Virus record (IMG/VR): IMGVR_UViG_3300013285_000020
Location: 1 to 53,262 of that record
DNA: 53,262 nt
Strand: one strand, 5' to 3'
Source: a virus
Lineage: Duplodnaviria > Caudoviricetes
Below, piece by piece: positions 5,345 through 37,598 of this stretch. Both the position numbers and the translations under genes were made by a program. A model generated the notes under the pieces. The model saw only the letters and a program-made list of their open reading frames with translations. It did no database searches and was not told the origin of the DNA. Positions within the stretch are counted from its first letter, which is position 1. Each line of letters opens with the position of its first letter.

Positions 5345-6804
5345 TCCCGTTCTGGATTTAAATTATTCAGCATGTTTCGAATAGCAGGCGCCGCTCCACC
5401 CTTGCTTTGCGGTTTAGTTAAATCAAAGCCCGCTTTGGCCTGAGGCTTTTCCCACTTGTCTAGAGTACTGGTTGATACTACACTGGTGCGTTTGAGTCCG
5501 TCCATAACACTATTGGTATTACCATTAGTACGTTGTTGGTTAAACGATGTTTGACCTTCTTCCTCGTCAATGTCAGTAATGCGTAGTGTGTCAATGTTAA
5601 ATTCCAAATCACACTTTTGTCCCACACCACTTGAACTACGAGTTTTCATAAACTGAATTTGATAGCGTCCACGTTCCTTCATAGCACGGCTAGTAAAGAT
5701 ACCAATTACGTTGTCTGCTGTCATGATCTTACTCAATCCACCTGAGATATGACTGTGGTCAAACTCAATTTCTTCAACAGCACTACGATTTAACTGTGAC
5801 GCAGTTACAGTAATACATTGTGTTTCCATTGCCAAATTTCTAATCTCTTCTGACACATATTTGTCCTTAACAAACAAATCGCTGGGACTTACCTTCACTG
5901 ACAAAGGCATCATTAAATCGAGGTAATCTATAAGCAAAACGTCTGGTTTTACACCTGTTTTTACCTGATATTCTTTAAGATATGCCCTAATATCGTTACA
6001 ATTTTTACCTGAAGGCATATACTTAACTTGCAGGTGTCCTGACTTCTTTTCCAACATTTTAACTTTGAGTTCAACATCATCAATGTTTCGGAAAATATCC
6101 CTAGTACCGATACCAGTTACCATACTATCCAAACGCATAGACACTAGCCCCTCACTCAATTCAAATGTTAGATAGATTACATTCAAACCTTGTAGTGCCC
6201 AGTTTACACCCAAGTTGGCCAGGAACAATGATTTACCACCACCTGATCCTGCACAGAAAATGTTCAACTCACCTCTGTTGAATCCACCGTAGAGTTTACG
6301 GTCAATGCTGGGCCATCCTGTTGAAATCTGTCCGTTATTATCTTTAAGTTTACTCAAACGAGCGCGGGGATCAGCAAAGTAATCTGTACCCATGTCCTTG
6401 TTCAAACTGATCTGAATAGCATCCTTGATTAACTTTTCTACTGGACCATACTCGCCTTCTTCCAAATAGTCTGCACTTTTAATAATAGCACGTTCAAGAC
6501 CTTTGTGACGACTAAAGTTTTCAAACTCATCCATCAACCATGTATAGTTTTCCTTGGGCAGTTGTATTGCATCAAACTCACTGCGGGTACTTGCATTAAC
6601 AATATTTGTTTCAGGCATGACCTTATATTCATCTACATACTTGGAGATAAATGTTGCGGCTTCTTGTAATCGTTGATCAAAGTTTTCTGCATCAAAAATA
6701 TTCTGACATCTAATAAAAGTCTCTGCATCGCTGAGAAACATTTCTATGTACAACTTCTGCATTGCATAGTCGTAATTGGGTTTTGGTTGTTTAGTCTTGG
6801 CCAT
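5341..6804 (-). CDS. Replicative DnaB-like helicase (T4 gp41-like)
   Basis: Walker A AGSGGGKS, LLIDYLDLM, TASQLNR and MKTRSS motifs. Confidence 0.92.
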   Translation of the reverse strand: MAKTKQPKPNYDYAMQKLYIEMFLSDAETFIRCQNIFDAENFDQRLQEAATFISKYVDEYKVMPETNIVNASTRSEFDAIQLPKENYTWLMDEFENFSRHKGLERAIIKSADYLEEGEYGPVEKLIKDAIQISLNKDMGTDYFADPRARLSKLKDNNGQISTGWPSIDRKLYGGFNRGELNIFCAGSGGGKSLFLANLGVNWALQGLNVIYLTFELSEGLVSMRLDSMVTGIGTRDIFRNIDDVELKVKMLEKKSGHLQVKYMPSGKNCNDIRAYLKEYQVKTGVKPDVLLIDYLDLMMPLSVKVSPSDLFVKDKYVSEEIRNLAMETQCITVTASQLNRSAVEEIEFDHSHISGGLSKIMTADNVIGIFTSRAMKERGRYQIQFMKTRSSSGVGQKCDLEFNIDTLRITDIDEEEGQTSFNQQRTNGNTNSVMDGLKRTSVVSTSTLDKWEKPQAKAGFDLTKPQSKGGAAPAIRNMLNNLNPERD

Positions 6805-7795
6805 TCTCTAATTTCTTTTTAAGTAGATGTAAATTTATCTCTCCACTGACCTTGTAATGCAAGATTGTGGCTAGTGTGTAAAGTCTTCCGTATCGTTTAA
6901 CTGCGTCTGCTACGTCCTTAATATCATGTTCCCATGGCGGCAAGCTGACACTCCATCCGTTGTCTACTGCCGCCTTGATCATTTTGGCGCCTGCCTTATC
7001 TCTATCTGGTACTACGATTATTTCTCTGCCCAAAGCGTTGAGCCGCATAACTTGTGTATCGTTTGGCTCATTATGCATGATAGCACATCCGTCAATGGCT
7101 ATGGCATCAAACTGTCCCTCTACTACAATAGTATACTGTCTATCATTAGTTTGTGCATCTAGATTGAACACATATCCTGGTTGTGCATCCGTCAAATATT
7201 TTGGCTTACCTTCTGTAATTTTACGTCCAGTGTAGCCTACTATTTTGCCATCATGATAAAATGGAATCAGTACTCGATCAACATAGCCAGGCGCAGGACT
7301 CCACATCCAGTTGTACCATTCCAAATCCATGCCACGGCCTATAATGTATTCTACTATGCGGCCAATATCTTCTGCAACATCTGGCAAATAGCCAGTGTTA
7401 ATCCATTCCATAACAGACATGGTGCCTTCAGGTAATTCTGTTTCTGTTAGTGTGAAGTTTAACGGCTTCTTGGTCACTGGTTGGTCATCTTTGACCTTAA
7501 GTGCTATTAGGTTTAATTTACCAATGTCAGCATCGTTCATACCAACCCAATTAAACAAGCTCTTGGTATTTTTGCTTAGTAGTTTGCCCGGACTCCATCC
7601 TGCTTTAAAGTTACAGTTGAAACAATGGTATTGGAAACCACCATCTGGATTGGTTAGTATGCCGCCCCGCTTTCTGGTATCTCTAGTATTGCCAGTATGA
7701 TGACAGCAGACTGCATCAAAACTTGTCCACCCACTGGGAGTGGTTTTTCGTTTCGAAGGTAATAATGCTAGGAGTGCGTCTTGAATTTCGTTCAC
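6791..7795 (-). CDS. DNA primase (T4 gp61-like)
   Basis: Zn-binding CC...HCFNC; TOPRIM motifs VVEGQFD and PDRDKAG, plus KDVAD; adjacent to the helicase. Confidence 0.9.
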   Translation of the reverse strand: MNEIQDALLALLPSKRKTTPSGWTSFDAVCCHHTGNTRDTRKRGGILTNPDGGFQYHCFNCNFKAGWSPGKLLSKNTKSLFNWVGMNDADIGKLNLIALKVKDDQPVTKKPLNFTLTETELPEGTMSVMEWINTGYLPDVAEDIGRIVEYIIGRGMDLEWYNWMWSPAPGYVDRVLIPFYHDGKIVGYTGRKITEGKPKYLTDAQPGYVFNLDAQTNDRQYTIVVEGQFDAIAIDGCAIMHNEPNDTQVMRLNALGREIIVVPDRDKAGAKMIKAAVDNGWSVSLPPWEHDIKDVADAVKRYGRLYTLATILHYKVSGEINLHLLKKKLENGQD

Positions 7796-7804
7796 ACTAC
7801 TAGT

Positions 7805-8650
7805 TTAACTTCTATACAGTGCTTTGTCAAGTGATCCGTAGTAACTAGGATTATCGTTTGTGCTGTCACCAGGTTTAACTGATGGAGTATATATTATTCG
7901 AATATATGTGTAGATGCCATTAAAATTCAAATAGTCAATTCCGTTAGCACCTGTGTACATGCGTGAGGCGATATTTGAATAGGACCCAGTAGAATCTGGT
8001 TGATTACTCAAAGTACCTTGGATAGTTACAGTTCCACGGTAATTGGTCATGTACAATGCTATAGTTTGAAGAGCACTGTTGTTGCTGTTGTATTCCGGAC
8101 TAGCGTATATATTACCGCTGAACCATTCATATCGACTAGATGCCGTGTTAAATCTAGATAAGAATGATACAACTTCCTGGCTTGGTTGCAGAGATGGATA
8201 AATGTCAGCCATGAGATATAGTGTGCCGTTAATTCCGTAATAGCTATTAGAATATGCCGGAACCATCAAGTTGTCAGCAGGATCTAGATATGTGACAGAG
8301 TATGTGTAACTGCCAACATCCAAATCAACAGTATCGCCGGGAGTAAATGAAACTTCAGCAAGGCCGCGCTGTGCCAGCGTAGTACCATCATCAAGTACTG
8401 TCATTGTTTTTGTTAGGAGTAGTCGTTGGTTTGTAGCATCAAACATATTGAACACATATGTGCCAGTATTAGAAATAACTATACGTTTTTGATCACTGTT
8501 CTTAAATTGGACTTGGATCTGATTCTTAACGCCTTTTTGAATTTTTAGATCGCGTTGATACATAACTTGATTGACTCCTGGTGTCGTTGGATCCACATCT
8601 AATATTACGCTGGTAGAATTTGGATATAAATATATTGGCAAACTTTGCAT
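7805..8650 (-). CDS. Hypothetical beta-rich protein, probably virion structural
   Basis: Thr/Ser/Tyr/Gly-rich Ig-like composition. TAAATA lies 5 nt before ATG 8650, the likely true start. Confidence 0.5.
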   Translation of the reverse strand: MQSLPIYLYPNSTSVILDVDPTTPGVNQVMYQRDLKIQKGVKNQIQVQFKNSDQKRIVISNTGTYVFNMFDATNQRLLLTKTMTVLDDGTTLAQRGLAEVSFTPGDTVDLDVGSYTYSVTYLDPADNLMVPAYSNSYYGINGTLYLMADIYPSLQPSQEVVSFLSRFNTASSRYEWFSGNIYASPEYNSNNSALQTIALYMTNYRGTVTIQGTLSNQPDSTGSYSNIASRMYTGANGIDYLNFNGIYTYIRIIYTPSVKPGDSTNDNPSYYGSLDKALYRS

Positions 8651-8668
8651 AAAGCTATTTATTAAATA

Positions 8669-9043
8669 ATGACACCAACCACTTTCCAAGATCATCACCC
8701 GTTCGTTTCCTGCATTAAATCTAACAATATTGAATATGTTGGCATTGTAATAAATTTTGACAGCTATGTAGCCAGCATTTATGATATCAGCGTTCTTAGA
8801 ACTGACGAGGAAAAGGTTAAACTCTTAGAATTAGGAGAAGTTTGGTGGTGGGAAAGCAATCGCAAAATTCCTATTAATATTTTCCTTAAAAGAGAAATGC
8901 AACTGTACAGATACGCCATAAAAACATTTACTAGCAAAGATGCCGAACTGGTGTTTGGTCCGTTGGTTAATCTAAGTGAAATCGCTGAAAAACGTATCAA
9001 GCGTAAATCTATACAGCTGATACGTACTCCCAAAAAACTCTAA
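8669..9043 (+). CDS. Hypothetical phage protein
   Basis: 124-aa ORF with a WWWESNRKIPI motif; divergent from the 8650 gene. Confidence 0.65.
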   Translation: MTPTTFQDHHPFVSCIKSNNIEYVGIVINFDSYVASIYDISVLRTDEEKVKLLELGEVWWWESNRKIPINIFLKREMQLYRYAIKTFTSKDAELVFGPLVNLSEIAEKRIKRKSIQLIRTPKKL

Positions 9044-9561
9044 TTTATATAAACAGTATCAAATACAAGAACAGTTCTGATCATGTTTTCTCTATGATCC
9101 CCAACAGTGTGCATTATACTTGCGCTGTGAATTACCAAATCCCCAGATTCTGGTTGAATAACAATTTTATTTCCATCATCTAAAAATATCAGTTCTGCGC
9201 CCTTGGTAGGAACATCGACATAAAAAATTCCAATACAATCCACATGATGATCGCTTATGTGATTGTGTGCTTGCCCTCTGGCAGTCCATCCTGGAAACAA
9301 TCGGTTAGACCAAGAGTCAATAAGTTTCACTGGTTTAGGTATAGACATTTGATCAATGACCCATTCTACCAAAGGTCCAGCACCTGGAAGATTGTGTAGT
9401 GAAATATAAGGGTGTCCGGCAGTGGTCAATGAGGCACTTTTGGTTGGATTACATTTTTTATGTATCTCTGGTAGTGCAAATACTTTATCTAGGCTATGCG
9501 TTAATTCTTTATTTTTATAAAGATTAGTATCGGCACAGTGTACCTTTGTATAATCCATCAT
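9040..9561 (-). CDS. 2OG-Fe(II) oxygenase (TIGR02466-like)
   Basis: SWSN, HNH, GIFYV, GDLVIH, HTV and R-x-V motifs. ATGA overlap with the upstream gene supports a start at 9561. Confidence 0.75.
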   Translation of the reverse strand: MMDYTKVHCADTNLYKNKELTHSLDKVFALPEIHKKCNPTKSASLTTAGHPYISLHNLPGAGPLVEWVIDQMSIPKPVKLIDSWSNRLFPGWTARGQAHNHISDHHVDCIGIFYVDVPTKGAELIFLDDGNKIVIQPESGDLVIHSASIMHTVGDHRENMIRTVLVFDTVYIN

Positions 9562-10217
9562 ACAAAGTCTGCATCGTATACGTGACATGTTCGGTGTAAG
9601 TCACTTTCATGTGTGCCTACAGCATGCCACACTTCTGGCAAGTGTAGTATCAGTTCACCCTCTACAGGTGTAATGTAATGTCTATCTTCTTCTGAGTATT
9701 CACTTAAATCAGTATATTCTCTACCATTGTTAATTACAATAAGTTTAGACGCATTGGGCGGAACATCAATATAAAATATTCCCACAATGTCAGGTCGAAA
9801 GTTAACGTAACTATAATTAGTTAACTCAGCAATGTATTCATCAACTTTGATATGCTGATGGCATTTACCGTTGGCTCCTTTAAACATTCTATTAGCCCAT
9901 GAACGCTTGAACTTAACTTTATTGCCAGGATTATCTATGCCTAATAATTCTTTAGCTGCCACCATTTGTTGTTCAATCCAAGCATTAAGCTCACTTGCCC
10001 CTGGCAAGTTTGCCACTTCAAGATATTCCATACCAACAGTGGTCAGTCCATTACCTTGTTGAGAATTTTGTTTTAATGAGCCCAAACGTTTGCGTTTGAC
10101 ATTGGGCATATTTAATACGTGATTAACTGCCTTAGTCAAGTCATTATTTTTATAAAGATTAACATCTGTGCATTGGACTCTTACAATAGTGTTGTCAAAT
10201 GCTTTTTCAATTCTCAT
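9558..10217 (-). CDS. 2OG-Fe(II) oxygenase (TIGR02466-like), paralog of the downstream gene
   Basis: SWAN, HQH, GIFYI, EGELILH, WHAV and R motifs; shares NLYKN and LPGA segments with 9040-9561. Confidence 0.75.
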   Translation of the reverse strand: MRIEKAFDNTIVRVQCTDVNLYKNNDLTKAVNHVLNMPNVKRKRLGSLKQNSQQGNGLTTVGMEYLEVANLPGASELNAWIEQQMVAAKELLGIDNPGNKVKFKRSWANRMFKGANGKCHQHIKVDEYIAELTNYSYVNFRPDIVGIFYIDVPPNASKLIVINNGREYTDLSEYSEEDRHYITPVEGELILHLPEVWHAVGTHESDLHRTCHVYDADFV

Positions 10218-11737
10218 ATATTTTTTAGATGTTCAATGTATTCGTAGTGATCAAGTGCGTTTTCAGATTCAGACTCAAGCAATGCTTTCAACTTTAATTC
10301 TGATTGTTCAGGATCAAACGTTTTATATTTGTCCAACTCACGTTCAGCAACATTGGGCTTGAAATATCCAATGCCTGCACCAACCATGTGCCAACTATAA
10401 ATTGCAAAAGGATTTAGTGGTTCTGTTTTTGGTGGCGATATTACTAAATTAAGATAGTCGTATTCACGTTGTTTAGGAATTGTTTTGCCGGCCACTTCAT
10501 TAAACTTAGAAACAAAATCTGGAGTTGTATTTCGTTCTTTAAACTGCGTCCAAAACTCTGTATCAGTTCTCTTTGATAGGTAATGGAAATGAATGAAACT
10601 TAAAATATGATCATTCATTAATTTCATTTCTGCATTGAACTTTTCAATGTACTGAGTCCTTGGTGCGCCAAATGCTGGTATCTGTTTAATAGTAGCGCCA
10701 AACCCACGCAGAGCAAATGTACTTACTTGAATAGATGTTGCTTCTAGCGGTTCAACAAAACTTGAACTTAATCCAATAGCCACACAATTATTAATCCATG
10801 TTTGTTGATACGCACCAGGATCAAAGTTAAATGCTCTCGGAATAGTTGGTTCATATCCTAAATATTCAGTAAGCTCTTTTTTAATTTCTTCGTCACTAAC
10901 TAACCTAGAATCAAAAACATAACCACAACCAAGTCTACCCTGGACTGGAATCTTCCACATCCAACCATACTTCATGGCAACAGATTCAGTGTAGGGAGGA
11001 ATGTCAGTGGTAGGGTTGTCAATAAAGAATGGCACCGCACGATTTACTGGCAAACTTGCTGAGTAGCTTTTCCACTCTGCCTTGTAATGATTGCCAATAA
11101 TTAATCTTTTAAATCCTGTACAGTCAAATACAAATCCAGCTTCAATAGTGTTACCAGACTTCAAATTGAATCCTGTAATATCGCCATTTTTCTTAGTAAG
11201 TATTTCTACAACTTCATCGTCAACCAATTCAATGCCTCTAGATTTACCAACATTTTCTAAATACTGTGCTAACAAATTGGCATCAAAGTGTAAGGCACAC
11301 ACACCTAATTCTTTATGTTCTTTGTTAAATTTGACCTTATTTTTTTCTGATATAACAGATGTAAATTGTAAGTCACTTAGTGTTTGATTTTTAGATATCT
11401 TGTTAAGATACAGAGGCATGGCATCAAACTTGGGACTAGGTGGGCGACCCAAATGATCTTGAAAGGGATGATAATAGTGTGTACCATCACCGTTCCAATT
11501 GGTGAACTTGATACCATTTTTAAAGGTACCTTTGGCATGTTTAATAATGCCGTCTACTGGCACATCGATCTCATCTAAAAATTTTAAGAAATCCCAATTA
11601 GTGCCTTCCCCTGCACCTAGTATGCCAATTGTACTGCTGGCAATGACTGTAACTTCGCAATATGGAACATGTTTTTTTACATATAATGCAGTGAGCCATC
11701 CGGCAGTGCCGCCACCCACTACTACGAATTTCATCAT
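10214..11737 (-). CDS. Flavin-dependent tryptophan-halogenase-family enzyme
   Basis: GGGTAGW FAD loop, GAGEGT, GTFKNGIKF (catalytic Lys region), WMWKIP (WxWxIP) and FVEPLEATSI. Confidence 0.9.
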   Translation of the reverse strand: MMKFVVVGGGTAGWLTALYVKKHVPYCEVTVIASSTIGILGAGEGTNWDFLKFLDEIDVPVDGIIKHAKGTFKNGIKFTNWNGDGTHYYHPFQDHLGRPPSPKFDAMPLYLNKISKNQTLSDLQFTSVISEKNKVKFNKEHKELGVCALHFDANLLAQYLENVGKSRGIELVDDEVVEILTKKNGDITGFNLKSGNTIEAGFVFDCTGFKRLIIGNHYKAEWKSYSASLPVNRAVPFFIDNPTTDIPPYTESVAMKYGWMWKIPVQGRLGCGYVFDSRLVSDEEIKKELTEYLGYEPTIPRAFNFDPGAYQQTWINNCVAIGLSSSFVEPLEATSIQVSTFALRGFGATIKQIPAFGAPRTQYIEKFNAEMKLMNDHILSFIHFHYLSKRTDTEFWTQFKERNTTPDFVSKFNEVAGKTIPKQREYDYLNLVISPPKTEPLNPFAIYSWHMVGAGIGYFKPNVAERELDKYKTFDPEQSELKLKALLESESENALDHYEYIEHLKNI

Positions 11738-12411
11738 TTTGTATCCTTATATTCTTTTATTCGATCAGCAACATAGTCTACTATAACTTGATGTGTGCTG
11801 GTGCTAAGGTAATGGGCTTTTATGACAGCAACACCTATCGCATCTTTTCCGCCTAAGTATGTTGTAAATGTATCAGTGCCAAAATAGCAATACCCATAAT
11901 ATGCTTCATCAGTATCTAGATGCTGTAATACCTGTGTGCTTAGATACTTGTAAAATGTTACAGTGTTGGTTACTGTACTAAGTTTTAATACTAATTCCTT
12001 TAACTGTCCATCAGCTTTATTGAAATCTTCAGGAATATTAGAGAACCCAAACAGAGGATGAATCCTCCGTGTTGTAGGGTCAGCGTATGCAATTATAGAG
12101 TCAAGTTCAAGACCAAACGTGTTAGGGTTATCAAAATTAGTTAACGGCCATAGCTGATCTATTGGAGGTTGCCAACCAGGTTGTGGTGGCTGACCGTAGT
12201 AAATATCTGGGAGAATAATCTTAGCGGTGCCTGATTTGTTAATTGATGGATCATTTAATGATATAGAAAAGAATAAAGGGTTAGCAATACTCATTGGTAA
12301 CATAGGCAAGTAATCACTAGGAACATTATCAACTGTCACTGCCGTAATTCTAGAATCACTCTCAAGCCAATTGATGTATGTTTGTAATTCTGGAGTAATT
12401 GATACCGACAT
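11734..12411 (-). CDS. Hypothetical protein within the rSAM/halogenase cluster
   Basis: 225-aa ORF coupled to both neighbours (1-nt gap and ATGA overlap); no recognisable motif. Confidence 0.65.
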   Translation of the reverse strand: MSVSITPELQTYINWLESDSRITAVTVDNVPSDYLPMLPMSIANPLFFSISLNDPSINKSGTAKIILPDIYYGQPPQPGWQPPIDQLWPLTNFDNPNTFGLELDSIIAYADPTTRRIHPLFGFSNIPEDFNKADGQLKELVLKLSTVTNTVTFYKYLSTQVLQHLDTDEAYYGYCYFGTDTFTTYLGGKDAIGVAVIKAHYLSTSTHQVIVDYVADRIKEYKDTK

Positions 12412-12412
12412 A

Positions 12413-13882
12413 TTAACCTTCTATTTTTATTTTACCATACACTTCGACATCGTCAATAGTTCCAACTTTTTCTGTTACAACCTTAATTGGTACAATCTTG
12501 CGTTTCTTTTCAGACTTATGTTCAAATAACATACCCCATACATCTTGACGATCCAATGGTAACGTATCAGACATGATATGTACTGGAACATATCCTCTGG
12601 TAATTTTTTCAAAAGCTAATGCAAATAATGCAATGTTATCCGAATATGCGTTGGCACAAGTAATGTCCCAATTAGCACCGTCCAAGTACATACAGCTACC
12701 TTGACATAGATGTAACACAGGGCACTCACTACATTTAATTTCGTGTGTTCTTGCTTTCCAATGTGTTACAGATTTTAATGCAACATTGTCATAGTCTGCT
12801 AAGTTTCCACCGTAATGGCTTTCACCATTCTTACTGGTCTCAACAATGCTAACGTTTTGACAAGTTACCACATTACCTTTTAAATCTACAGCCAATGTGT
12901 TTTCGTTATCCATTCCACATTTTTGATTTACATATTTAGATTCTCTGTGATTTAGAACACCATTAGTAAAATTATCAAGTTTACTAAATGTTAGATAAAA
13001 ATTAATACTACTATTATCTGTCTGCGTATTGTAAATATCTGAAAACGCTTGGCGTCTATATGCAAAATGTTCTTCAGGAGTTTGTAAACAATTTTCAGAG
13101 GCGGCATCATCGTATGCATCAATAAATCCACCTTCTCCAATGTTTACACTAGGGTCTCCAGTTAGATTTACAAACCAATCATACACTGCTTTACGGCTAG
13201 TATTTTTATTATTCATCATGGCATTGAAGCTAACACGTCCCAACGGTTTCATTACTTTGTAAAACTCTAAGATAATTTCTTTTTGTTTTGGGTCATCAAA
13301 CGGATCTGGTCCACGAACAAACTGACCAGGACCATCGTGGCTTATGCCTACTGAAAATCCCATGTAGTACAGCCAAGAACAAATCTCACGAGTAAGAATA
13401 CTGCCGTTAGTTACAATACTAAAATTAAGTTTATCTTCCCAGTCCTCAAATTTTTCTTGAAGTGCTTCAGCCAATGGTTTCAAAGTTTTCCAATAAACTA
13501 AAGGTTCACCACCCCAAAACTCAACTCTCAAGCCTTGTTCTTTGGAAAATTCTAAATTCTCTAACTTGGACATAAAATCTTCAATATCTTTTTTACTAGT
13601 CTCTGGTGGACGTTCAACATATCGTTGTGAGCAGTATTCGCAAGAATAGTTACAACTTAATCCTAATTGTATCTTGAGTGTCGTAATTAATTTAGATTTT
13701 TTAAGTGGAGTATCTTTGTTAAACGGTACTGACTCAGGCATTTTTCCAAAAGTACCACCTGGTTTTGGATACTCCCATACAAACCCAGTTTCATCTGATA
13801 TAGTATTTGAATCGTTATCGTAAAAGAATATTTTACGATTAGTTGTGTCGCTTAACAGCTCTGCTTCTATTTTAAATTTCAT
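12413..13882 (-). CDS. Radical SAM/SPASM-domain peptide/protein maturase
   Basis: CNYSCEYC (CxxxCxxC), FWGGEP, TNG and ISHDGP; C-terminal KCG...TCQ...CSECPVLHLCQGSC...C SPASM Cys pattern. Likely ATG at 13882. Confidence 0.9.
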   Translation of the reverse strand: MKFKIEAELLSDTTNRKIFFYDNDSNTISDETGFVWEYPKPGGTFGKMPESVPFNKDTPLKKSKLITTLKIQLGLSCNYSCEYCSQRYVERPPETSKKDIEDFMSKLENLEFSKEQGLRVEFWGGEPLVYWKTLKPLAEALQEKFEDWEDKLNFSIVTNGSILTREICSWLYYMGFSVGISHDGPGQFVRGPDPFDDPKQKEIILEFYKVMKPLGRVSFNAMMNNKNTSRKAVYDWFVNLTGDPSVNIGEGGFIDAYDDAASENCLQTPEEHFAYRRQAFSDIYNTQTDNSSINFYLTFSKLDNFTNGVLNHRESKYVNQKCGMDNENTLAVDLKGNVVTCQNVSIVETSKNGESHYGGNLADYDNVALKSVTHWKARTHEIKCSECPVLHLCQGSCMYLDGANWDITCANAYSDNIALFALAFEKITRGYVPVHIMSDTLPLDRQDVWGMLFEHKSEKKRKIVPIKVVTEKVGTIDDVEVYGKIKIEG

Positions 13883-13901
13883 TTCAATCCTATTATTTTT
13901 A

Positions 13902-14384
13902 TTACCAGCATGCACAATCTAAGTTACATGCACACGCACAAATCCACGGGCAATCACAATTACACGCATATGTATAACTGGTTATGTTACAATTAAATGT
14001 ACATGCACAATTACAATTTCCTTGTAGCCAAGCTCTTGTATCGTTGACAGGAGTGAAGTCTACACCATTTACCAACGGATCAGTGTGGCAGTTTTGGCTA
14101 CCGTTATTTCCACAGTTGCTACAGTTGCCGTTGTCCGCTCCTACATTTGCATTATTGCAGTTGGAGTTTCGTATGTTATTATTGTAATACGCCCACCCAG
14201 TACCACCTTGGGCAGGTGGCGCAGGGGAGTTTTGATCGTACCATTGCAACGGAATGTTTGCGGTTGGATATTCTGGCGGGCGAGTGACTGCTAATACGTC
14301 AGTCAATGCGGTTCTGCGAGTTGGGTTTCCTGTAACTTCGTTACTAATATCCCCGATAGATAGTGTTCCAATTGGTAATGTCAT
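13902..14384 (-). CDS. Cys-rich protein, putative substrate/precursor of the rSAM cluster
   Basis: 16 Cys, 12 of them in the last 37 residues (CNCACTFNC...CNCDCPWICACACNLDCACW); lies immediately upstream of the rSAM gene. Confidence 0.75.
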   Translation of the reverse strand: MTLPIGTLSIGDISNEVTGNPTRRTALTDVLAVTRPPEYPTANIPLQWYDQNSPAPPAQGGTGWAYYNNNIRNSNCNNANVGADNGNCSNCGNNGSQNCHTDPLVNGVDFTPVNDTRAWLQGNCNCACTFNCNITSYTYACNCDCPWICACACNLDCACW

Positions 14385-14409
14385 AGTAGTTTAAGCTCTA
14401 AATATGTAT

Positions 14410-14988
14410 TTATGCGGGTAAACTACCGTTGTGTATATTGGCTGCTATACTTACTCTATCCTCTTTTGATAGGTTAGTATCTACCATGTGAGCAAGATAT
14501 CCTGGAAAAATTACCAACTTACCAGGCGTAGGTTCGATACGTTTGTAAACAACACCATTTAATTTTCTAGGATGTTTGGAGTCACTAACCCAGTCCCAAT
14601 TAATTGTACCCCTCGGATCTACTAATAGCAAATCTCCAGAATTTTTTGGAACTTTGGCATAATATGTAGTAACCAACATCACGTGTGGATGGGCATGCAA
14701 TAAAAGATTTTCCCCCGGCTTGGTACGATGACCCCATCCATCAATTAATCTAGGATTATAAGGATGGAAGGGGGGGAAGTAGGGTTTAACAGTCAACTCT
14801 AAACATTTGAATATTGTTTCTTTTAATGTATTAATTGAATAACAATCTTTATCCCATATGTTGTACTGAACACCTTTGTTGGCTATTTCAGCAATATCGT
14901 TCATTAGGATAGTGTTAAAGTAATCATCAAACCCAGTATCAATCTCCCATACTGGTGTTGCCCAAAATTCATTCTTAACTATATTCAT
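14410..14988 (-). CDS. 2OG-Fe(II) oxygenase (TIGR02466-like)
   Basis: FWATPVW, HAH, SGDLLLVDPR, GKLVIFPGYLAHMV and RVSIAAN. Confidence 0.85.
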   Translation of the reverse strand: MNIVKNEFWATPVWEIDTGFDDYFNTILMNDIAEIANKGVQYNIWDKDCYSINTLKETIFKCLELTVKPYFPPFHPYNPRLIDGWGHRTKPGENLLLHAHPHVMLVTTYYAKVPKNSGDLLLVDPRGTINWDWVSDSKHPRKLNGVVYKRIEPTPGKLVIFPGYLAHMVDTNLSKEDRVSIAANIHNGSLPA

Positions 14989-15544
14989 AGCTTATTCCTT
15001 CGCATATTAGATTCATTTGAACAACGATGGCCATTGCATAAGCAATTGCATGGGCCTTTTTAAAGAAGTAATCATCAGTAGTCGGTCGGGTCCACACTTC
15101 CTTCATTATCGTCGTCCAGTCCTTCCCAATCAAATATCTCTTGGCTGGCCGAATCATTGCTAGGACCGCACTTAATTGTTCCACGGAAGTAGGGCAAGTC
15201 TGCCTCAATACCGTCCCATGCCCGTTCAAATGAAATAACAGATTCACGAAGTCGTCTTGTAAAAGTAAATCCCATAGTGGTTCAGTCTCCATTAGTCTGA
15301 TCAGATGTTCTTCATTTCTAACATCTTTATAAACACTGACATTCAAAAAATCTATTTTAAAATATCCCCTAGTATCTGCATCTTTATAATTGATACTTGA
15401 GTTGCCAGTTAGTGGGTTAACTGGAATTTGATGACAGTATACACCGGTGTTATGTTTCTTTCCATCTTCTAATGTCGCAGGAATGTGCTTGATAATATCA
15501 AGTATCTTAGTTCTATCAGGAAAGTCTAAATCAATATCCGGCAT
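14975..15544 (-). CDS. Miniature DNA polymerase III alpha (DnaE)-like catalytic protein
   Basis: MPDIDLDF, KHNTGVY, GYFKIDFL, LAMIRPA and FFKKAHAIAYA correspond to conserved DnaE motifs, within only 189 aa. Confidence 0.8.
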   Translation of the reverse strand: MPDIDLDFPDRTKILDIIKHIPATLEDGKKHNTGVYCHQIPVNPLTGNSSINYKDADTRGYFKIDFLNVSVYKDVRNEEHLIRLMETEPLWDLLLQDDFVNLLFHLNGHGTVLRQTCPTSVEQLSAVLAMIRPAKRYLIGKDWTTIMKEVWTRPTTDDYFFKKAHAIAYAMAIVVQMNLICEGISYEYS

Positions 15545-16313
15545 TTCTTATCTCATCGTAACTTGGCGCATAATTGCCTCGGTGCTGTACAGTAATACTC
15601 GAGGCGACATTAGCAAATATTATAGCATTTTCTGCGCTCTTTGTAAAGAGAAATTGCACAGCCAACGAAGCCAAAAATGTATCACCGGCTCCACAAACAT
15701 CACTAACTTCAACTTTTTTGGCAGGATAAAGTGTACCTCGCCACGCCGCACCATCGCCGCCATGTGTAACAATAAGTTCTGAGTGTGTAGGGTGTGAAGT
15801 CAATCTACTAAACTCTAATTGATTAATTTTGATGATTGCTCCTTTGATTTGAGCAAGGTCAGTTTTCTTTGTATCAATGAATACGGGGCCTTCAAAGTTG
15901 TTGATTACATTTTGAATATTTTCGTAGGTTATATAACCTTTGTTGTAGTCACTGATAATAACTGCATCAAACATATCTAAGGTATACCCTCCCAATGTAC
16001 CATCCCATGGTTGAACTTCTGGTTCATCATCAACACGTAACATATGCTGACCGGAACGTTTGTCTATATATCGAGTTTTTGTAATCAGTTCATCATTGGT
16101 AACAAACACCACTGAGCAGTTTAGGTTTACTAAATTTTTATTAACGTTATCTGCCATTCCTGGAACATCGTATGTTTCTACAATTTTAATTACAGGTACA
16201 GGAGCCTCAGGGCTTAGTCTATCTATGGTACCAATTTTGTACCTATCAACACAATTATCCCCGATTAATAATATCTTGAATGGTGTTTGTAGTTGAGTGT
16301 CCTGTGTGGGCAT
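15531..16313 (-). CDS. Heptose-7-phosphate kinase (HldE/RfaE domain I, PfkB family)
   Basis: RLSPEAPVPV, TKTR, ISDYNKG and DVCGAGDTF. Confidence 0.88.
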   Translation of the reverse strand: MPTQDTQLQTPFKILLIGDNCVDRYKIGTIDRLSPEAPVPVIKIVETYDVPGMADNVNKNLVNLNCSVVFVTNDELITKTRYIDKRSGQHMLRVDDEPEVQPWDGTLGGYTLDMFDAVIISDYNKGYITYENIQNVINNFEGPVFIDTKKTDLAQIKGAIIKINQLEFSRLTSHPTHSELIVTHGGDGAAWRGTLYPAKKVEVSDVCGAGDTFLASLAVQFLFTKSAENAIIFANVASSITVQHRGNYAPSYDEIRNAGY

Positions 16314-16650
16314 AAAATTTTATCTCTTTGCAATATTCTTGACCAATAATTGGTCTGTATCTGTAATCGGCGCCCTTAACCATAATGTCAGGTTCATAAA
16401 TTTTTATCATGTCTTCTAACTGTTCGTCGGTATCAAACACATAAACTCGAGTTACACCTTTGACGCACTCCAACATAAATTTTCTATCTTCTTGATTATT
16501 AATAGGACGGCTTTCGCCTTTTAATTCCTTAACTCTGCGATCACTATCTATTGCTACAACTAGTGCCTCGCCTAGACCTGCGGCATATTGTAACAGCTCT
16601 AAATGGCCGCGGTGAAGTATGTCAAAAGTTCCGTTAACAAATATTTTCAT
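16255..16650 (-). CDS. Heptose-1-phosphate adenylyltransferase (HldE/RfaE domain II, cytidylyltransferase fold)
   Basis: NGTFDILHRGH, LKGESRPIN, VKGADY and HSTT. Confidence 0.88.
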   Translation of the reverse strand: MKIFVNGTFDILHRGHLELLQYAAGLGEALVVAIDSDRRVKELKGESRPINNQEDRKFMLECVKGVTRVYVFDTDEQLEDMIKIYEPDIMVKGADYRYRPIIGQEYCKEIKFYAHTGHSTTNTIQDIINRG

Positions 16651-17423
16651 GGTTTATAGTATGCATTTAGTTTAGTCAAATCAGCGCAGGTATACTTTTG
16701 ATATTGTCGCTTGATGTCTTCTGGCATGGGTATAAATTCAATCTTAGCATCATGTTCTGCGGCAATTTGTTCTGCCAGCTGTAAGAAAGATTTTGGATCA
16801 CCTGTACCAATATTCCACACACCTGACTCTGTGCGAGACCACATTTTTTTGTGAACATCAATTACTTTTTCCACAGGAACAAAATCTCTGAAAAAGTATT
16901 CACTGCCTTCAAAAACTTTGATCACACCAGTCTCTTTGGCCTGCTTGGTAAATTTGTGATAGGGACTTGCTTGGTCACCTTTATGATCTTCATGTGGACC
17001 ATATACATTAAAATACCTAAACCCCTGCACACGTATTTTAAATTCACGTTGCATATTGAGTGCATATCGTTCAAATAACAATTTACTCCAGGCGTACGGG
17101 CTCATTGGAGCAGGTGGTGCTTTTTCACTAAAATTTAAACCAAGGCCATAAACGCTTGCTGAACTAGCATACTGAAAATTAACTCCAGCGTGATGGCACG
17201 TTGCAACTAGAAATCGACTAAAGTCATAATTTTGTTCAAGTACTTTGTTGACATCAGTTTCTGTAGTTGAACTGACAGCACCCAAATGTATGCACAAATC
17301 GTGCCCAGCCACATCTGGTATTTCCTCGCCCCACTCATATAGAGTTAACTCATGATCGTCTTTAAGAGCATTGACCATATTTTGGCCGATAAACCCCTTA
17401 TATCCAGTAATATAAATCTTCAT
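16647..17423 (-). CDS. hldD: ADP-L-glycero-D-manno-heptose 6-epimerase
   Basis: TGYKGFIG, HLGAVSSTTE, YASSASVYG, YAWSK, FRYFNVYGPHEDHKG and YQKYTCAD. Confidence 0.85.
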   Translation of the reverse strand: MKIYITGYKGFIGQNMVNALKDDHELTLYEWGEEIPDVAGHDLCIHLGAVSSTTETDVNKVLEQNYDFSRFLVATCHHAGVNFQYASSASVYGLGLNFSEKAPPAPMSPYAWSKLLFERYALNMQREFKIRVQGFRYFNVYGPHEDHKGDQASPYHKFTKQAKETGVIKVFEGSEYFFRDFVPVEKVIDVHKKMWSRTESGVWNIGTGDPKSFLQLAEQIAAEHDAKIEFIPMPEDIKRQYQKYTCADLTKLNAYYKP

Positions 17424-17645: not shown

Positions 17646-18005
17646 TTAACCTTTCTGGCTGTCGCCTTTTGCTACTCTAAAATTATCTTCAACACTGTCT
17701 GGTGTACTTACTTCAATAATAGTGCCAGCTTCCTGACAAATTAATTGGTGGGGTTTGCATGGTTCATTGTGCCACACATCACCCGGTTTAAGATATACGC
17801 TATGCTCGTCGGCAGTTTTTGTGTCAATCCATTTAACAAAAAATAAGCCGTCTAATACATACCATGTTTCTTCTTTAAACTGATGAAAGTGCATACTAAA
17901 TTTTGCACCAGTATTAAACTTCATCAGTTTACCACAGTACTTGTCATTGGTAGCCCAGATGTTTTCTGCGCCCCATCCCTTTTCTACATAACCTTCTAAT
18001 CTCAT
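17646..18005 (-). CDS. Cupin-fold protein (sugar-phosphate-isomerase-like)
   Basis: KGWG, SMHFH..KEETWYV, PHQL and IEVST motifs. Confidence 0.75.
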   Translation of the reverse strand: MRLEGYVEKGWGAENIWATNDKYCGKLMKFNTGAKFSMHFHQFKEETWYVLDGLFFVKWIDTKTADEHSVYLKPGDVWHNEPCKPHQLICQEAGTIIEVSTPDSVEDNFRVAKGDSQKG

Positions 18006-28359: not shown

Positions 28360-29946
28360 TTAGTACGTGCTAATGTAAATTGGCATGGGCAAATCGTGTT
28401 CGTCAAGCCCATCTTGATCCCGCATTTTATCGTATACTGATGGATCCCACTCTTGCAGGGTCATAATCATGCGAATATTTAACAACAAACTCATTACTAA
28501 ATCATCGTGTTGTCCTGATTTGGCTTTAAAAGTAACCCCTTCGCTAACAAATGCTTTAAGTTCACTTATCAATGCCTTACTTTGTATCTTCATTTTGTTA
28601 GTTTCGATTAATTTTTTAAGCTGGGCGCAAGCTGATATTTTAGCAAGATGCGTAGTGTTAAACCCTTTACGGAATCGACGAATATGTCCACGCTTTACTG
28701 GCTCACTTAAAAACAATCCTGGAAATGATTCTTCACCCAATGCATCTATAGCAACTAACGCACTTTCTCCCAGTGTATTATTTTCTACGCTATAATAGAT
28801 ACTAGGAGTTACCCCAGATTTCAAACATCGCTCTTCTATGTGTTTTAACAAGTCTCTTAAAATCCGCACTTGACTTTGTATAGGAGTCATATTATGATGC
28901 CATTCGCATACTTGATCAAAGCTGGGCAACTCTAAAATTTGTATGGCCGCATAATCCCCACCTGTCCCTAAACTAGGATCTAAACTAACAATATAGGTTA
29001 GATTAGGTTTGATCTTTTTATACCAGCGGGCTTGACCCATCTTCATTAACGGTTCGTTACCTTCTAATCCGGCAAGACAAATACTGTTGATCAGTGTTTC
29101 ATCAAAGATTAAGAATTTACATTCATGTTCACGTTCGAATCTCTCAACACCAACACGACTACGTTCTTCGTTTGCCCATTTATCATCTCTATCAGGATGT
29201 TGACTCCAAATAGCCATGAAAGGATGGAAACCGTTTTTGCCTAGGTGTGTAGTGTTGCCGTATTCATCTATACGCTTATTAGCTTCATTCCAAATCATGG
29301 CAAATTGATCTTCGTCACTGTTAGGAGTACTTGTAATAATAGCCTTACCACCAGTAGCTAATGTTGGAGAGATAGAAGTCCAAAACTCCACAGCAATATT
29401 AGGTTCAACATAGGCAAACTCGTCACAATATAGTAATGATACAGACATACCACGACCTGTTGTTTCAGTTGTTGTCTGTGCAACAATACGTGAACCGTTA
29501 TCAAATTCAATACTTTGTTTATTGTAGCTAGTACATCCTGCACGGATAAAATCAGGGCAAGTTTCATATGCGTAACGCAGACGTTGCATAATTTCTTGGG
29601 CACCTGTATATTTGTGCGCTGAAATAAGGATGGTACTGTTGGGCACAAACATGCCATACCATAGTAAGTATCCTACCGCAGTAGTGGTTTTACCCATCTG
29701 TCGTCCCAACATGTTTACACTGAATCGATTTCCGTGATAACTGTCTAATAATTCCTCTTGATATTCAAATGGAGCGTATTGTATCTTGCCCTTAGTTGGG
29801 TGCTGAATAAAGAAGAAATGTTCAATAAAATACTTTGGACCAGTTACTGGATCCATACAGGCGGCCATATGTTGCAAGTCTTCGTCAGACCATCGTTGCG
29901 TGGCATGCGCCTTTTTAACTAAATTACCGTCTAATGATTTTCCCAT
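28360..29946 (-). CDS. Terminase large subunit (T4 gp17-like)
   Basis: RQMGKTT, YCDEFAY, TSTPN, SLDPSLG and HDDLVMS. Confidence 0.93.
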   Translation of the reverse strand: MGKSLDGNLVKKAHATQRWSDEDLQHMAACMDPVTGPKYFIEHFFFIQHPTKGKIQYAPFEYQEELLDSYHGNRFSVNMLGRQMGKTTTAVGYLLWYGMFVPNSTILISAHKYTGAQEIMQRLRYAYETCPDFIRAGCTSYNKQSIEFDNGSRIVAQTTTETTGRGMSVSLLYCDEFAYVEPNIAVEFWTSISPTLATGGKAIITSTPNSDEDQFAMIWNEANKRIDEYGNTTHLGKNGFHPFMAIWSQHPDRDDKWANEERSRVGVERFEREHECKFLIFDETLINSICLAGLEGNEPLMKMGQARWYKKIKPNLTYIVSLDPSLGTGGDYAAIQILELPSFDQVCEWHHNMTPIQSQVRILRDLLKHIEERCLKSGVTPSIYYSVENNTLGESALVAIDALGEESFPGLFLSEPVKRGHIRRFRKGFNTTHLAKISACAQLKKLIETNKMKIQSKALISELKAFVSEGVTFKAKSGQHDDLVMSLLLNIRMIMTLQEWDPSVYDKMRDQDGLDEHDLPMPIYISTY

Positions 29947-37400: not shown

Positions 37401-37500
37401 CTACGAAAATTAATGGGACCGTGCCCGGTGCGGCGGGCGCATAGAAACTTTGGTTTATAACTGAGACGTTAACGCCTGGTGATTGTAATGTTTGTGCCAT
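34474..37500 (-). CDS. Contractile tail sheath protein (gp18-like) with large inserted domains
   Basis: SPGVNV at the N-terminus, WFAPAGTRRG, RVNVARL, FEPND and KAVEFIYIP. AAGGAG SD precedes ATG 37500. Confidence 0.92.
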   Translation of the reverse strand: MAQTLQSPGVNVSVINQSFYAPAAPGTVPLIFVATAQDKQNASGTGIAQGTTAKNAGTVWVITSQRDLVDTFGTPYFQTVSGTPVHGSEINEYGLQAAYSVLGVSSQAYVVRAPVDLSAMVGSSTQPTGTPTAGTVWLNTSDSTFGVNVWSTSTNNGQGGFTSVTPLVIDNSNYATAFSGSAPLSSFGVVGNFAMVAPNSATGALTKAQLYFKSASLGWVSVSNGFDGGKYLTISPNYGNPTATYQSLNAANGSVWICTNSVTGGSMWDFKYYSGSAQAWTTVNAPVYLSRQDAIANLDNTTGGLAIPLNSIFVDTDSNNTVAADFKTFVRSNTGPSTISVTSSTTVSTGGSFNIRETSASGNWINSSTIRLSPGGTLGNSIAAGINTSTNLVNVNASWNPTNSVLTISHTLGGEIELVDGTGTPLSIMGIKPSAVGTIARLNLSPTGDSGFALEISNWSQATYYSQSTAPGVTPPDGYLWFNNYIGDADILYNNGTAWIGYRNAFPNTDINGPIISATAPTTQSSGIANSLVTGDIWINSASNVDFGTQIYVYNSLAGAGTNGWVLQDTTDHVSPNGWLFADARWATSGATPMSTVVPITSMLISNFLDSDCPSARLYARGTRLFNTRRSSNNVKYYDVGYVNLNGTNANNGNEPQTSYYPDRWVTASANNEKGQGQFGRLSQRSVVVSAMQALIQNSTAIRDTDTLNYNLIACPGYPETISTMVNLNTDIGQLALVLGDTPMRLLPDATTLNSYGKNSAKVTADGERGLVTHDPYLAVYYPSGYTTDNYGNNIVVPSSHIMLHTIINSDNVSYPWFAPAGTRRGIVTNASSVGYVSPTTGQFTPTSLYGSLRDVLSIVEINPIATLPGSGLTVMGQYTRDANSDALNRVNVARLVAYLRRQLATLAKPFLFEPNDSQTRNEIRTSIENLLLELVGQRALYDFVVVCDKSNNTPTRIDMNELWVDIAIEPVKAVEFIYIPLRLLNTGAIASGNFGSQSNGSNNSTTG

Positions 37501-37598
37501 CTTCAAAACTCCTTAGTGGATTACTTTGTTTTATTTAGCAAGTAATCCAAAAAAATACAGGTTAAATACCTATTGAAAAGGTGTGAAAAAGGGCGGGT

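What the first reader, a model, noticed from the sequence alone, without database searches (positions are those of the whole stretch)
9040..14988. Phage-encoded RiPP-like modification cluster: Cys-rich substrate, rSAM/SPASM, flavin halogenase and three 2OG-Fe(II) oxygenases
Seen: seven co-oriented genes in the order oxygenase, Cys-rich protein, rSAM/SPASM, unknown, halogenase, oxygenase, oxygenase. The last five are translationally coupled (ATGA overlaps at 11734-11737, 10214-10217 and 9558-9561; 1-nt gap at 12412). Known: SPASM enzymes such as PapB and NxxcB make thioether links from Cys to Asp/Asn carbons in neighbouring peptides; MibH halogenates peptidyl Trp; 2OG oxygenases hydroxylate peptide residues. 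The candidate substrate offers matching targets: many Asn-Cys/Asp-Cys pairs and Trp in AW, PW and the terminal CW. Inference: a multi-enzyme post-translational pathway carried by a lytic phage between replication genes. No protease or exporter is visible, so the product may remain a modified protein rather than a secreted peptide. I am not aware of a characterised phage system like this.
Basis: partly seen in the sequence, partly recalled or inferred. Interest (0 to 1): 0.93.

Follow-up and report, generated by a model that had tools for sequence, protein, structure and literature searches.

The report
Phage maturase cluster for cysteine-repeat protein
A phage gene cluster pairs a radical-SAM enzyme, oxygenases and a halogenase with a small cysteine-rich protein, and the same enzyme sits beside cysteine-tipped tail fibres in many other phages, which points to an undescribed way of chemically finishing phage surface proteins.

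Summary
The seven genes exist as described. They are a 2OG oxygenase, a 160-aa Cys/Asn-rich protein, an rSAM/SPASM enzyme, a 225-aa unknown, a flavin halogenase with intact catalytic motifs, and two more 2OG oxygenases.

Of 83 non-redundant homologous rSAM loci with at least 4 kb on both flanks, 81 carry a Cys-repeat protein within 4 kb.

The reverse test also held. Among viral loci seeded only by DNA encoding a Cys-Asn repeat, all 27 of 27 with a C-terminal repeat and enough flank carry this rSAM. None of 12 with an internal repeat does.

The interpretation needs widening. In prophages and in phages JWF and RSP15 the repeat-bearing proteins are genuine tail fibres. In relatives of the small protein, the repeat is followed by self-cleaving Hint or S74 chaperone domains.

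The conserved core is a Cys-X-repeat tail, the rSAM and a 2OG oxygenase. The halogenase is a clade-specific addition that travels with a terminal Trp.

The most likely function is thioether cross-linking and tailoring of a retained, probably virion-associated protein. No chemistry was shown. I found no paper describing this.

The parts
14410..14988 (-). 2OG-Fe(II) oxygenase A (192 aa), PF13759 family
   Evidence: Pfam PF13759, E 2.5e-18. phrog_81, E 4.9e-24. It carries the H-x-H...H...R-x-S metal and 2OG motif, whose two His are invariant in 177 of 177 family members. The same family sits next to the rSAM in 62 of 83 loci.
13902..14384 (-). Cys/Asn-rich protein (160 aa), the presumed substrate. 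It has a conserved N-terminal region, Asn-Cys motifs, three C-x-C-x-C runs and a terminal Cys-Trp.
   Evidence: ORF. Composition. Family alignment of 28 sequences with invariant Cys and Asn columns. No Pfam, PHROG or NCBIfam match. It lies immediately upstream of the rSAM in relatives.
12413..13882 (-). Radical SAM / SPASM maturase (489 aa counted from the ATG at 13882)
   Evidence: PF04055. SPASM TIGR04085 above its cut-off, with PapB, QhpD and CcpM as best but sub-threshold hits. The CxxxCxxC motif and all SPASM Cys are invariant in 11 sequences. Closest solved relatives are 8vpo, 5wgg and 4k37.
11734..12411 (-). 225-aa protein of unknown family ('u225'), a conserved companion directly downstream of the rSAM in this lineage
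   Evidence: An iterative search finds 44 hits, all directly after the rSAM. It is very divergent, with no invariant column in 26 sequences. The AlphaFold model is confident at pLDDT 87.4. No fold match reaches E <= 0.001 in PDB or BFVD.
10214..11737 (-). Flavin-dependent halogenase (507 aa), tryptophan-halogenase family
   Evidence: PF04820, E 4e-101. The best PDB match is 5hy5 at 8.6e-64, and VirX1 (6qgm) scores 4.9e-49. The GxGxxG, the Lys in the 'tfK' stretch, WxWxIP and FVEPLE align with solved halogenases.
9558..10217 (-). 2OG-Fe(II) oxygenase B (219 aa)
   Evidence: PF13759 at 26.1 bits, cut-off 27. phrog_81, E 6.7e-11. Recovered by the family profile at 5.7e-28. H-x-H...H...R is present.
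9040..9561 (-). 2OG-Fe(II) oxygenase C (173 aa counted from the ATG at 9561)
   Evidence: PF13759 at 26.1 bits. phrog_81, E 6.1e-11. Family profile 8.5e-19. ATGA overlap with the preceding gene.

Best explanation
This is the most elaborate version seen here of a widespread phage module. The module chemically matures the C-terminal Cys-X repeat tail of a phage protein that is kept as a protein and not exported as a peptide. X in the repeat is mostly Asn, Ala or Asp.

Shown by computation:
- The rSAM/SPASM gene and a protein ending in a Cys-X repeat are reciprocally linked across phages.
- The repeat-bearing proteins include genuine tail fibres.
- PF13759 2OG oxygenases are co-conserved with the rSAM.
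- All enzymes in the window keep their catalytic motifs.

Inferred:
1. The rSAM/SPASM enzyme acts on the repeat. It most likely joins Cys sulfur to carbons of neighbouring Asn, Asp or Ala residues as thioether cross-links, as its nearest characterised relatives do.
2. The three 2OG oxygenases hydroxylate residues of the same domain.
3. The halogenase halogenates the C-terminal Trp.
4. The 225-aa protein is a non-catalytic helper, either a chaperone or a recognition partner.
5. The product is a rigid, covalently locked small protein, probably displayed on or attached to the virion like the fibre tips of the related systems.
For: Forward linkage:
- Of 83 non-redundant rSAM loci with at least 4 kb on both flanks, 71 have a same-strand ORF with a C-x-C-x-C run within 4 kb.
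- 10 of the remaining 12 have a profile-detected homologue of the Cys-rich family.

Background rate:
- 109 of 1642 genes within 4 kb of the rSAM carry such a run, against 2 of 870 genes farther away.

Reverse linkage, from 80 viral loci seeded only by DNA encoding the repeat:
- 61 of the 80 have the pattern in frame in an ORF.
- 27 of 27 loci with a run within 12 aa of the C-terminus of an ORF of at least 70 aa, and at least 3.5 kb downstream, carry the rSAM.
- 0 of 12 loci with a non-C-terminal run carry it.

The repeat sits at the end of the protein:
- The run lies within 10 aa of the C-terminus in 75 of 107 cases.
- Residues between the Cys are N 269, A 152 and D 57, with no other residue above 8.

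Fibre identity:
- JWF gp028 and RSP15 ORF048 are annotated tail fibres next to rSAMs 46% identical to the window's.
- Prophage fibres with collagen-like and fibre repeats end in the run.

Self-cleaving domains follow the run:
- Peptidase_S74 chaperone, E 1.2e-6, above its cut-off.
- Hint domains in 25 of 67 longer homologues.

Chemistry lead:
- The best NCBIfam hits are the thioether formers PapB and QhpD.
- The best named PDB hits are 5wgg and anSME.
- The SPASM Cys are invariant.

Oxygenases and halogenase:
- The oxygenase family occurs in 62 of 83 loci, with an intact triad.
- The halogenase motifs are intact.
- 16 of 17 halogenase loci have a Trp right after the last run or at the very C-terminus, as in the window. 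Only 1 of 63 loci without a halogenase does.
Against: - No chemistry was observed. Thioether formation is inferred from sub-threshold family similarity: PapB 83.9 bits against a cut-off of 340, QhpD 71.4 against 453.
- The window's small protein has no recognisable fibre domain, and its AlphaFold model is poor at pLDDT 40.8. Virion association is therefore by analogy only.
- In the window the cluster lies among replication genes, 29 kb from the tail fibre gene.
- One close relative (L004) keeps the rSAM without any Cys-rich gene in its 44-kb fragment.
- 21 of 83 loci lack a detectable oxygenase.
- The link between halogenase and terminal Trp rests on few events. There are 3 changes of one trait and 2 of the other on the rSAM tree, and 2-3 independent pairs, so there is no significance after correcting for relatedness.
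- Ala is the second commonest residue between the Cys. This does not fit an Asn/Asp-only acceptor model.
Confidence: 0.6

Rival explanations
1. Classical RiPP natural product. The conserved N-terminal 40 residues would be a leader, and the Cys-rich part a core that is modified, cut off and released at lysis as a bioactive or metal-binding peptide.
For: - The protein is small, at 125-170 aa.
- The N-terminal region is conserved and is the only part with moderate model confidence.
- The rSAM resembles RiPP maturases.
- The set of tailoring enzymes varies between loci. A second B12-like rSAM occurs in 25 loci and the halogenase in 36. This is typical of RiPP clusters.
Against: - No protease or transporter family was found among the seven products or the scanned neighbours.
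- The same repeat and rSAM pair occurs on full-length tail fibres that have no such N-terminus.
- Relatives are fused to fibre-type S74 chaperone and Hint domains.
Confidence: 0.15
2. The Cys-X repeat is a metal-thiolate or disulfide-rich structural motif. The rSAM would perform a reaction other than thioether formation on it, such as anSME-like oxidation of Cys, epimerisation or C-methylation.
For: - C-x-C spacing puts all the thiols on one face of a strand.
- One fibre ends in H-x-H followed by the Cys run (L017). From recall, this resembles metal-binding H-x-H fibre tips.
- anSME is among the hits, and JWF's depositors named its gene after it.
- Ala is common between the Cys.
Against: - The anSME target motif is absent (recalled).
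- Hits to thioether formers score higher than the anSME hit.
- This rival differs from the best explanation only in chemistry, not in target.
Confidence: 0.2
3. The halogenase and oxygenases make a small-molecule secondary metabolite, and are unrelated to the Cys-rich protein. Iyer and colleagues proposed this in 2010 for cyanophage arrays of dioxygenases and halogenases.
For: - PMC2938197 (passages) describes such arrays in phage Syn9 and predicts metabolite synthesis.
- VirX1 is a solved viral halogenase (6qgm). That it accepts diverse small substrates is recalled, not seen.
Against: - The oxygenase family is co-conserved with the rSAM and the repeat protein far outside cyanophages, including prophage tail modules.
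- Overlapping ATGA stop and start codons tie these genes to the rSAM.
- 15 of 16 halogenase loci also carry the u225 companion.
- No peptide synthetase or other scaffold-forming enzyme is present.
Confidence: 0.05

Closest known systems
PapB / ranthipeptide and CteB / SCIFF thioether maturases (rSAM-SPASM)
   Same: - Same enzyme architecture: CxxxCxxC plus a full SPASM Cys set.
- PapB is the best NCBIfam hit, and 5wgg is the second-best PDB hit.
- The substrate is Cys-rich, with Asp or Asn close to Cys.
   Different: - Scores lie far below the family cut-offs: PapB 83.9 against 340, SCIFF maturase (CteB's family, TIGR03974) 45.2 against 425.
- The substrate is a 160-aa protein or a whole tail fibre, not a short leader-core peptide.
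- The spacing is C-x-C rather than C-x3-D.
- There is no protease or exporter.
QhpD/QhpC/QhpG maturation of quinohemoprotein amine dehydrogenase
   Same: - An rSAM-SPASM enzyme cross-links Cys to Asp/Glu inside a protein subunit that is retained.
- A flavoprotein modifies a Trp of the same subunit (recalled).
- QhpD is the third-best NCBIfam hit, and QhpG is a weak hit for the halogenase.
   Different: - Both scores are far below cut-off: 71.4 against 453, and 20.4 against 240.
- The flavoenzyme here keeps the halogenase-specific motifs.
- No dehydrogenase subunits are present, and the context is a phage.
Cyanophage dioxygenase and tryptophan-halogenase arrays (Syn9; Iyer et al. 2010) and the viral halogenase VirX1
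   Same: - Phage-borne flavin halogenase together with several non-identical 2OG oxygenases (PMC2938197, passages).
- VirX1 matches at 4.9e-49.
   Different: - The passages I read of that paper mention no rSAM and no Cys-repeat protein, and propose small-molecule products.
- Here the enzymes are tied to a protein substrate by synteny.
Tail fibres with a C-terminal intramolecular chaperone (Peptidase_S74)
   Same: - Relatives of the small protein (L028, L040) carry an S74 domain straight after the Cys run.
- The window's own 709-aa tail fibre ends in such a domain.
   Different: - The window's Cys-rich protein has no S74 domain.
- I know of no described S74 fibre that pairs the domain with a Cys-X repeat and an rSAM gene.

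Membership tests
Radical SAM / SPASM-domain enzymes | CxxxCxxC cluster motif | tested here: met
   C77, C81 and C84 are invariant in 11 of 11 aligned sequences. PF04055 scores 37.4 bits against a cut-off of 29.5.
Radical SAM / SPASM-domain enzymes | C-terminal SPASM Cys pattern for auxiliary clusters | tested here: met
   C322, C341, C384, C387, C393, C397 and C409 are invariant. TIGR04085 scores 35.1 bits against a cut-off of 27.
PapB-family ranthipeptide maturase (NF047865) | Score above the curated cut-off | tested here: not met
   83.9 bits against 340.
Ranthipeptide / sactipeptide RiPP system | Short precursor with a cleaved leader, and a protease or exporter in the cluster | tested here: not met
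   No protease or transporter family appears among the seven products or the neighbours scanned. The substrate is 160 aa, or a tail fibre in other phages.
Ranthipeptide / sactipeptide RiPP system | Cys-to-carbon thioether links in the product | not testable with these tools
   This needs mass spectrometry.
Flavin-dependent tryptophan halogenase (PF04820) | Family score, GxGxxG, catalytic Lys, WxWxIP and the Glu in FVEPLE | tested here: met
   339.6 bits against a cut-off of 21. All the motifs align with 5hy5 and 2wet. The catalytic roles of these residues are recalled.
Flavin-dependent tryptophan halogenase (PF04820) | Substrate is Trp, free or peptidyl | tested here: inconclusive
   A terminal Trp co-occurs with the halogenase in 16 of 17 halogenase loci, against 1 of 63 loci without one. 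Only 2-3 independent contrasts support this.
2OG-Fe(II) oxygenase, PF13759 | Family score and metal/2OG-binding residues | tested here: met
   Oxygenase A scores 66.8 bits. Oxygenases B and C score 26.1 bits against a cut-off of 27, but all three have H-x-H...H...R, and the two His are invariant in 177 of 177 members.
QHNDH maturation system (QhpD, QhpG) | Scores above the curated cut-offs | tested here: not met
   QhpD 71.4 against 453, and QhpG 20.4 against 240.
Phage tail fibre / fibre-tip protein | Recognised fibre domain or chaperone domain in the window's 160-aa protein | tested here: not met
   There is no Pfam, PHROG or NCBIfam hit. Only homologues carry S74 or Hint domains.
Phage tail fibre / fibre-tip protein | Presence in virions | not testable with these tools
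   This needs virion proteomics.

The most novel reading that the evidence does not exclude
Many phages enzymatically 'weld' the distal tips of their receptor-binding fibres. In this reading, a dedicated rSAM/SPASM enzyme and 2OG oxygenases convert a C-terminal Cys-X repeat into a covalently cross-linked, hydroxylated knot. This would be a post-translational modification class not yet described for virus structural proteins. This myovirus would carry a stand-alone, additionally halogenated version of that tip.
Probability: 0.35. Interest if true: 0.9.

Novelty: new variant of a known kind. Interest (0 to 1): 0.8.

Why it matters
- Covalent maturation of phage structural proteins is known mainly as autocatalytic isopeptide chainmail and proteolysis. 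A dedicated radical-enzyme pathway for fibre tips would be a new layer of virion biochemistry. It could bear on particle stability and host recognition.
- The module gives a large, natural set of rSAM/SPASM enzymes that act on folded proteins.
- It offers a concrete candidate substrate for the long-unexplained 2OG oxygenases and halogenases of marine phages.
- It is directly testable, because cultured carriers exist: phage JWF and Limnohabitans and Polynucleobacter isolates with prophage copies.

Tried and rejected
- tblastn of the Cys-rich protein against the phage collection found nothing. Low-complexity masking is the likely cause.
- The AlphaFold model of the Cys-rich protein, built with a 28-row alignment, was poor (pLDDT 40.8). 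It was not used for fold search.
- The model of the 225-aa protein was good (pLDDT 87.4), but no match reached E <= 0.001 in PDB or BFVD.
- The ESM Atlas gave only unnamed clusters.
- Complex prediction of the 225-aa protein with the Cys-rich protein returned 'no answer'. It is not used as evidence either way.
- The link between halogenase and terminal Trp looked striking (Fisher 3e-13). It shrinks to 2-3 independent contrasts on the rSAM tree and is kept only as a lead.
- DNA hypermodification was considered, because rSAM and flavoenzymes occur in thymidine hypermodification pathways (PMC8989533, search listing and abstract only). It was rejected because the synteny is with Cys-repeat proteins and fibres, and none of the Pfam, PHROG or NCBIfam hits of the seven products or scanned neighbours is to a DNA- or nucleotide-modifying enzyme family.
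- The distant rSAM cluster of Ralstonia phage RP12, at 29% identity, has no Cys-repeat protein. It is a different system.
- A residue-level link between oxygenase presence and Asn/Asp versus Ala in the runs was looked at by eye only, and no clear pattern was seen.
- Six literature searches found no paper that links rSAM/SPASM enzymes with tail fibres or Cys-repeat phage proteins. One search was too broad to be informative.
- Supplements are closed. The supplementary neighbourhood data of PMC2938197 could list related phage clusters that I could not see.

Full report
**Observation.** The window is a fragment of a myovirus. It encodes a tail sheath (34474-37506), a tube, a terminase (28360-29946), virion proteins, a tail fibre (43792-45921) with collagen-like repeats and an S74-type C-terminus, and replication genes. 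Its helicase is 52% identical to those of PA5oct-like jumbo phages.

- The domain calls are as claimed.
- The three ATGA overlaps and the 1-nt gap are exact.
- The rSAM probably starts at 13882 rather than at the overlapping GTG.
- Co-orientation itself means little, because almost all long ORFs from 2675 to 38556 are on the minus strand.

**Enzymes.**
- *rSAM.* The rSAM has the CxxxCxxC motif and a complete SPASM cysteine set, all invariant among 11 homologues. Its best curated-family hits are peptide or protein maturases, led by PapB (83.9 bits) and including QhpD (71.4 bits). All lie far below their cut-offs, so it belongs to no named family. The closest solved chains are 8vpo, 5wgg and the anaerobic sulfatase maturase.
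- *Halogenase.* It matches solved tryptophan halogenases at up to 8.6e-64, and VirX1 at 4.9e-49. It keeps the flavin motif, the Lys, WxWxIP and the Glu-containing FVEPLE stretch. The roles of these residues are recalled.
- *Oxygenases.* All three share H-x-H...H...R-x-S. In an alignment of 177 non-redundant family members the two outer His are invariant. The middle position is His in 128, Glu in 32, Asp in 11 and Ala in 6. The Arg is present in 128.

The rSAM is 46% identical to genes of Ralstonia phage RSP15 and Achromobacter phages JWF and 2-1. There it lies in tail-fibre modules.
- JWF's fibre gp028 has a run of alternating Cys and Asn/Asp/Ser immediately before a Hint domain.
- RSP15's side-fibre fragment ends in a short version of the same run.

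Scans found 16 close relatives in viral contigs, and then at least 559 of 598 matched stretches encoded a relative, of which 80 were kept. In bacterial genome contigs 158 of 193 stretches encoded a relative, and 80 were kept. Many of the bacterial hits are prophages of Limnohabitans and other Burkholderiales.

After removing duplicates, 156 loci remained, and 83 of them have at least 4 kb on both flanks.
- 71 of the 83 have a same-strand ORF with a C-x-C-x-C or longer run within 4 kb.
- 10 of the other 12 have a profile-detected homologue of the Cys-rich family with less regular spacing, a frameshift, or an ORF my script had masked.
- RSP15 has only C-x-C.
- One locus (L004) has none in its 44-kb fragment.
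- As background, 109 of 1642 genes within 4 kb carry a run, against 2 of 870 farther away.

**Reverse test.** I scanned viral contigs for DNA encoding C-N-C-N-C-x-C-N-C. This gave 120 stretches, of which 80 were kept as loci.
- 61 of the 80 have the pattern in frame in an ORF, and 36 of those 61 contain the rSAM.
- Where the run lies within 12 aa of the end of an ORF of at least 70 aa and at least 3.5 kb of downstream DNA is held, 27 of 27 have the rSAM.
- With shorter flanks, 9 of 22 do.
- For runs that are not C-terminal, 0 of 12 do.

The linkage is therefore reciprocal, and it is specific to a C-terminal repeat.

**What the repeat-bearing proteins are.** In prophage loci the layout is as follows:
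1. a J-like central fibre;
2. two small proteins;
3. a fibre of about 200-620 aa that ends in the run, some with collagen-like repeats and the usual fibre repeat motif;
4. a protein of about 280 aa;
5. a protein of about 200 aa;
6. the rSAM.

The roughly 200-aa protein belongs to the same PF13759-like family as the window's three oxygenases. An iterative profile recovers the window's proteins at 1.6e-51, 5.7e-28 and 8.5e-19, and there is a weak direct Pfam hit. That family is present in 62 of the 83 loci.

The window's protein belongs to a second class, 125-170 aa long. This class has a conserved N-terminal region, several Asn-Cys motifs and the terminal runs.
- Relatives of this class continue, right after the run, into a Peptidase_S74 intramolecular-chaperone domain (E 1.2e-6, above cut-off).
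- Others continue into Hint domains. 25 of 67 longer homologues carry a precomputed Hint-type Pfam domain.
- Others continue into an unknown domain of about 170 aa with hydrophobic segments.

S74 and Hint domains remove themselves (recalled). In all these forms the Cys run would therefore become the mature C-terminus, as it already is in the window. In several phages the small gene directly follows large fibre or structural genes.

**Accessory genes.**
- The 225-aa protein has 44 iterative-search hits, always directly after the rSAM and only in the small-protein class. It has no invariant column in 26 sequences and a confident model with no known fold. This fits a non-catalytic helper.
- The halogenase occurs in 16 of the 83 loci, and 15 of those also have the 225-aa protein.
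- A second, B12-domain-like rSAM occurs in 25 loci but not in the window.
- Among 80 loci with a repeat ORF and adequate flanks, 15 of 17 halogenase loci have a Trp directly after the last run. The figure is 16 of 17 if the window's terminal Trp is counted. Only 1 of 63 loci without a halogenase has one. In the S74-fused forms the Trp sits just before the predicted cleavage site.
- On the rSAM tree these traits change only 3 and 2 times, giving 2-3 independent contrasts. The correlation is a lead and not a proof.

**Mechanism.** The best-supported reading is that the rSAM/SPASM enzyme modifies the C-terminal Cys-X repeat, and that the oxygenases, and here the halogenase, tailor the same domain. 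The product stays a protein.

Thioether cross-linking is the likeliest chemistry for two reasons. The best-scoring curated families with known chemistry form Cys-to-Asp/Asn/Glu thioethers, and the residues between the Cys are mainly Asn (269), Ala (152) and Asp (57). The abundance of Ala, the sub-threshold scores and the absence of any measurement keep this at roughly even odds.

Virion association of the window's small protein is inferred from the fibre context of the family. It is not shown.

**Prior knowledge.** Iyer et al. 2010 (PMC2938197, passages read) described cyanophage arrays of dioxygenases and tryptophan halogenases and predicted small-molecule products. The passages I read mention no rSAM or Cys-repeat protein in those arrays. 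A 2025 cyanophage paper (PMC12801897, passages) lists an rSAM maturase as an 'antibiotic synthesis gene' without a substrate. Papers on VirX1 appeared only as a search listing. Six searches found nothing linking rSAM/SPASM enzymes to tail fibres. NCBIfam release 20 has no model for the Cys-rich protein or for this rSAM clade.

**Verdict.** It is too narrow, however. The window shows one elaborate member of a widespread, apparently undescribed phage module that targets Cys-repeat C-termini, including those of tail fibres.

Noticed in passing
window 15531-17423 and 17646-18005: Just upstream of the cluster are three sugar-nucleotide genes: a sugar-kinase-like protein of unnamed PHROG family phrog_8133 (my reading: RfaE domain I-like), a heptose 1-phosphate adenylyltransferase-like protein, and a nucleotide-sugar epimerase. 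A small protein matching the PHROG family 'cysteine dioxygenase' is also there. The same genes precede the cluster in the closest relatives, L003 and L013. They could add a sugar to a phage or host molecule.
   Followed up: partly
window 7805-8698: A 297-aa protein matching a PHROG 'virion structural protein' family (E 4.9e-14) lies directly downstream of the cluster. It co-occurs with the cluster only in close relatives: 6 loci by phmmer.
   Followed up: partly
L004 (IMG/VR contig fragment), 5522-8797: A relative whose rSAM is 70% identical keeps the rSAM between the polymerase fragment and the 297-aa protein. It lacks the Cys-rich gene, the 225-aa gene, the halogenase and all the oxygenases, and no Cys-rich homologue is found in its 44-kb fragment.
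   Followed up: partly
L140, L146, L148, L155, L156, L159 (each 6684-7403): Six prophage loci carry a 239-aa oxygenase-family protein with Ala at the acidic metal-ligand position (H-x-A). From recall, that pattern is typical of Fe/2OG halogenases.
   Followed up: no
L026 5996-7522, L010 11638-13170 and 23 further loci: A second radical SAM protein of about 500 aa, with a weak B12-binding-domain hit, accompanies the module in 25 loci. It is absent from the window.
   Followed up: partly
L012 9483-10391, L011 1787-2698, L038 9490-10398: A variant of the Cys-rich protein of about 300 aa lies downstream of the rSAM. It carries an extra C-terminal domain of about 170 aa with hydrophobic segments and no Pfam match.
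   Followed up: partly
window 43792-45921: The window's 709-aa tail fibre has long Gly-x-Gln collagen-like repeats, a C-terminal stretch that reads like an S74 intramolecular chaperone, and no cysteine at all.
   Followed up: partly
L006 7743-7997: In one contig the Cys-rich gene is cut to 84 aa by a frame change, relative to near-identical contigs L007-L009. This is either an assembly error or a natural knock-out.
   Followed up: no
L177 (Ralstonia phage RP12) 2114-7224: A distant relative at 29% identity sits in a cluster of three radical SAM genes next to virion genes, with no Cys-repeat protein. It is probably a different maturation system.
   Followed up: partly
window 14975-15544: A stand-alone 189-aa protein matches only a short PHROG 'DNA polymerase' family (E 1.7e-62). 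It looks like a fragment or a split subunit of a polymerase.
   Followed up: no
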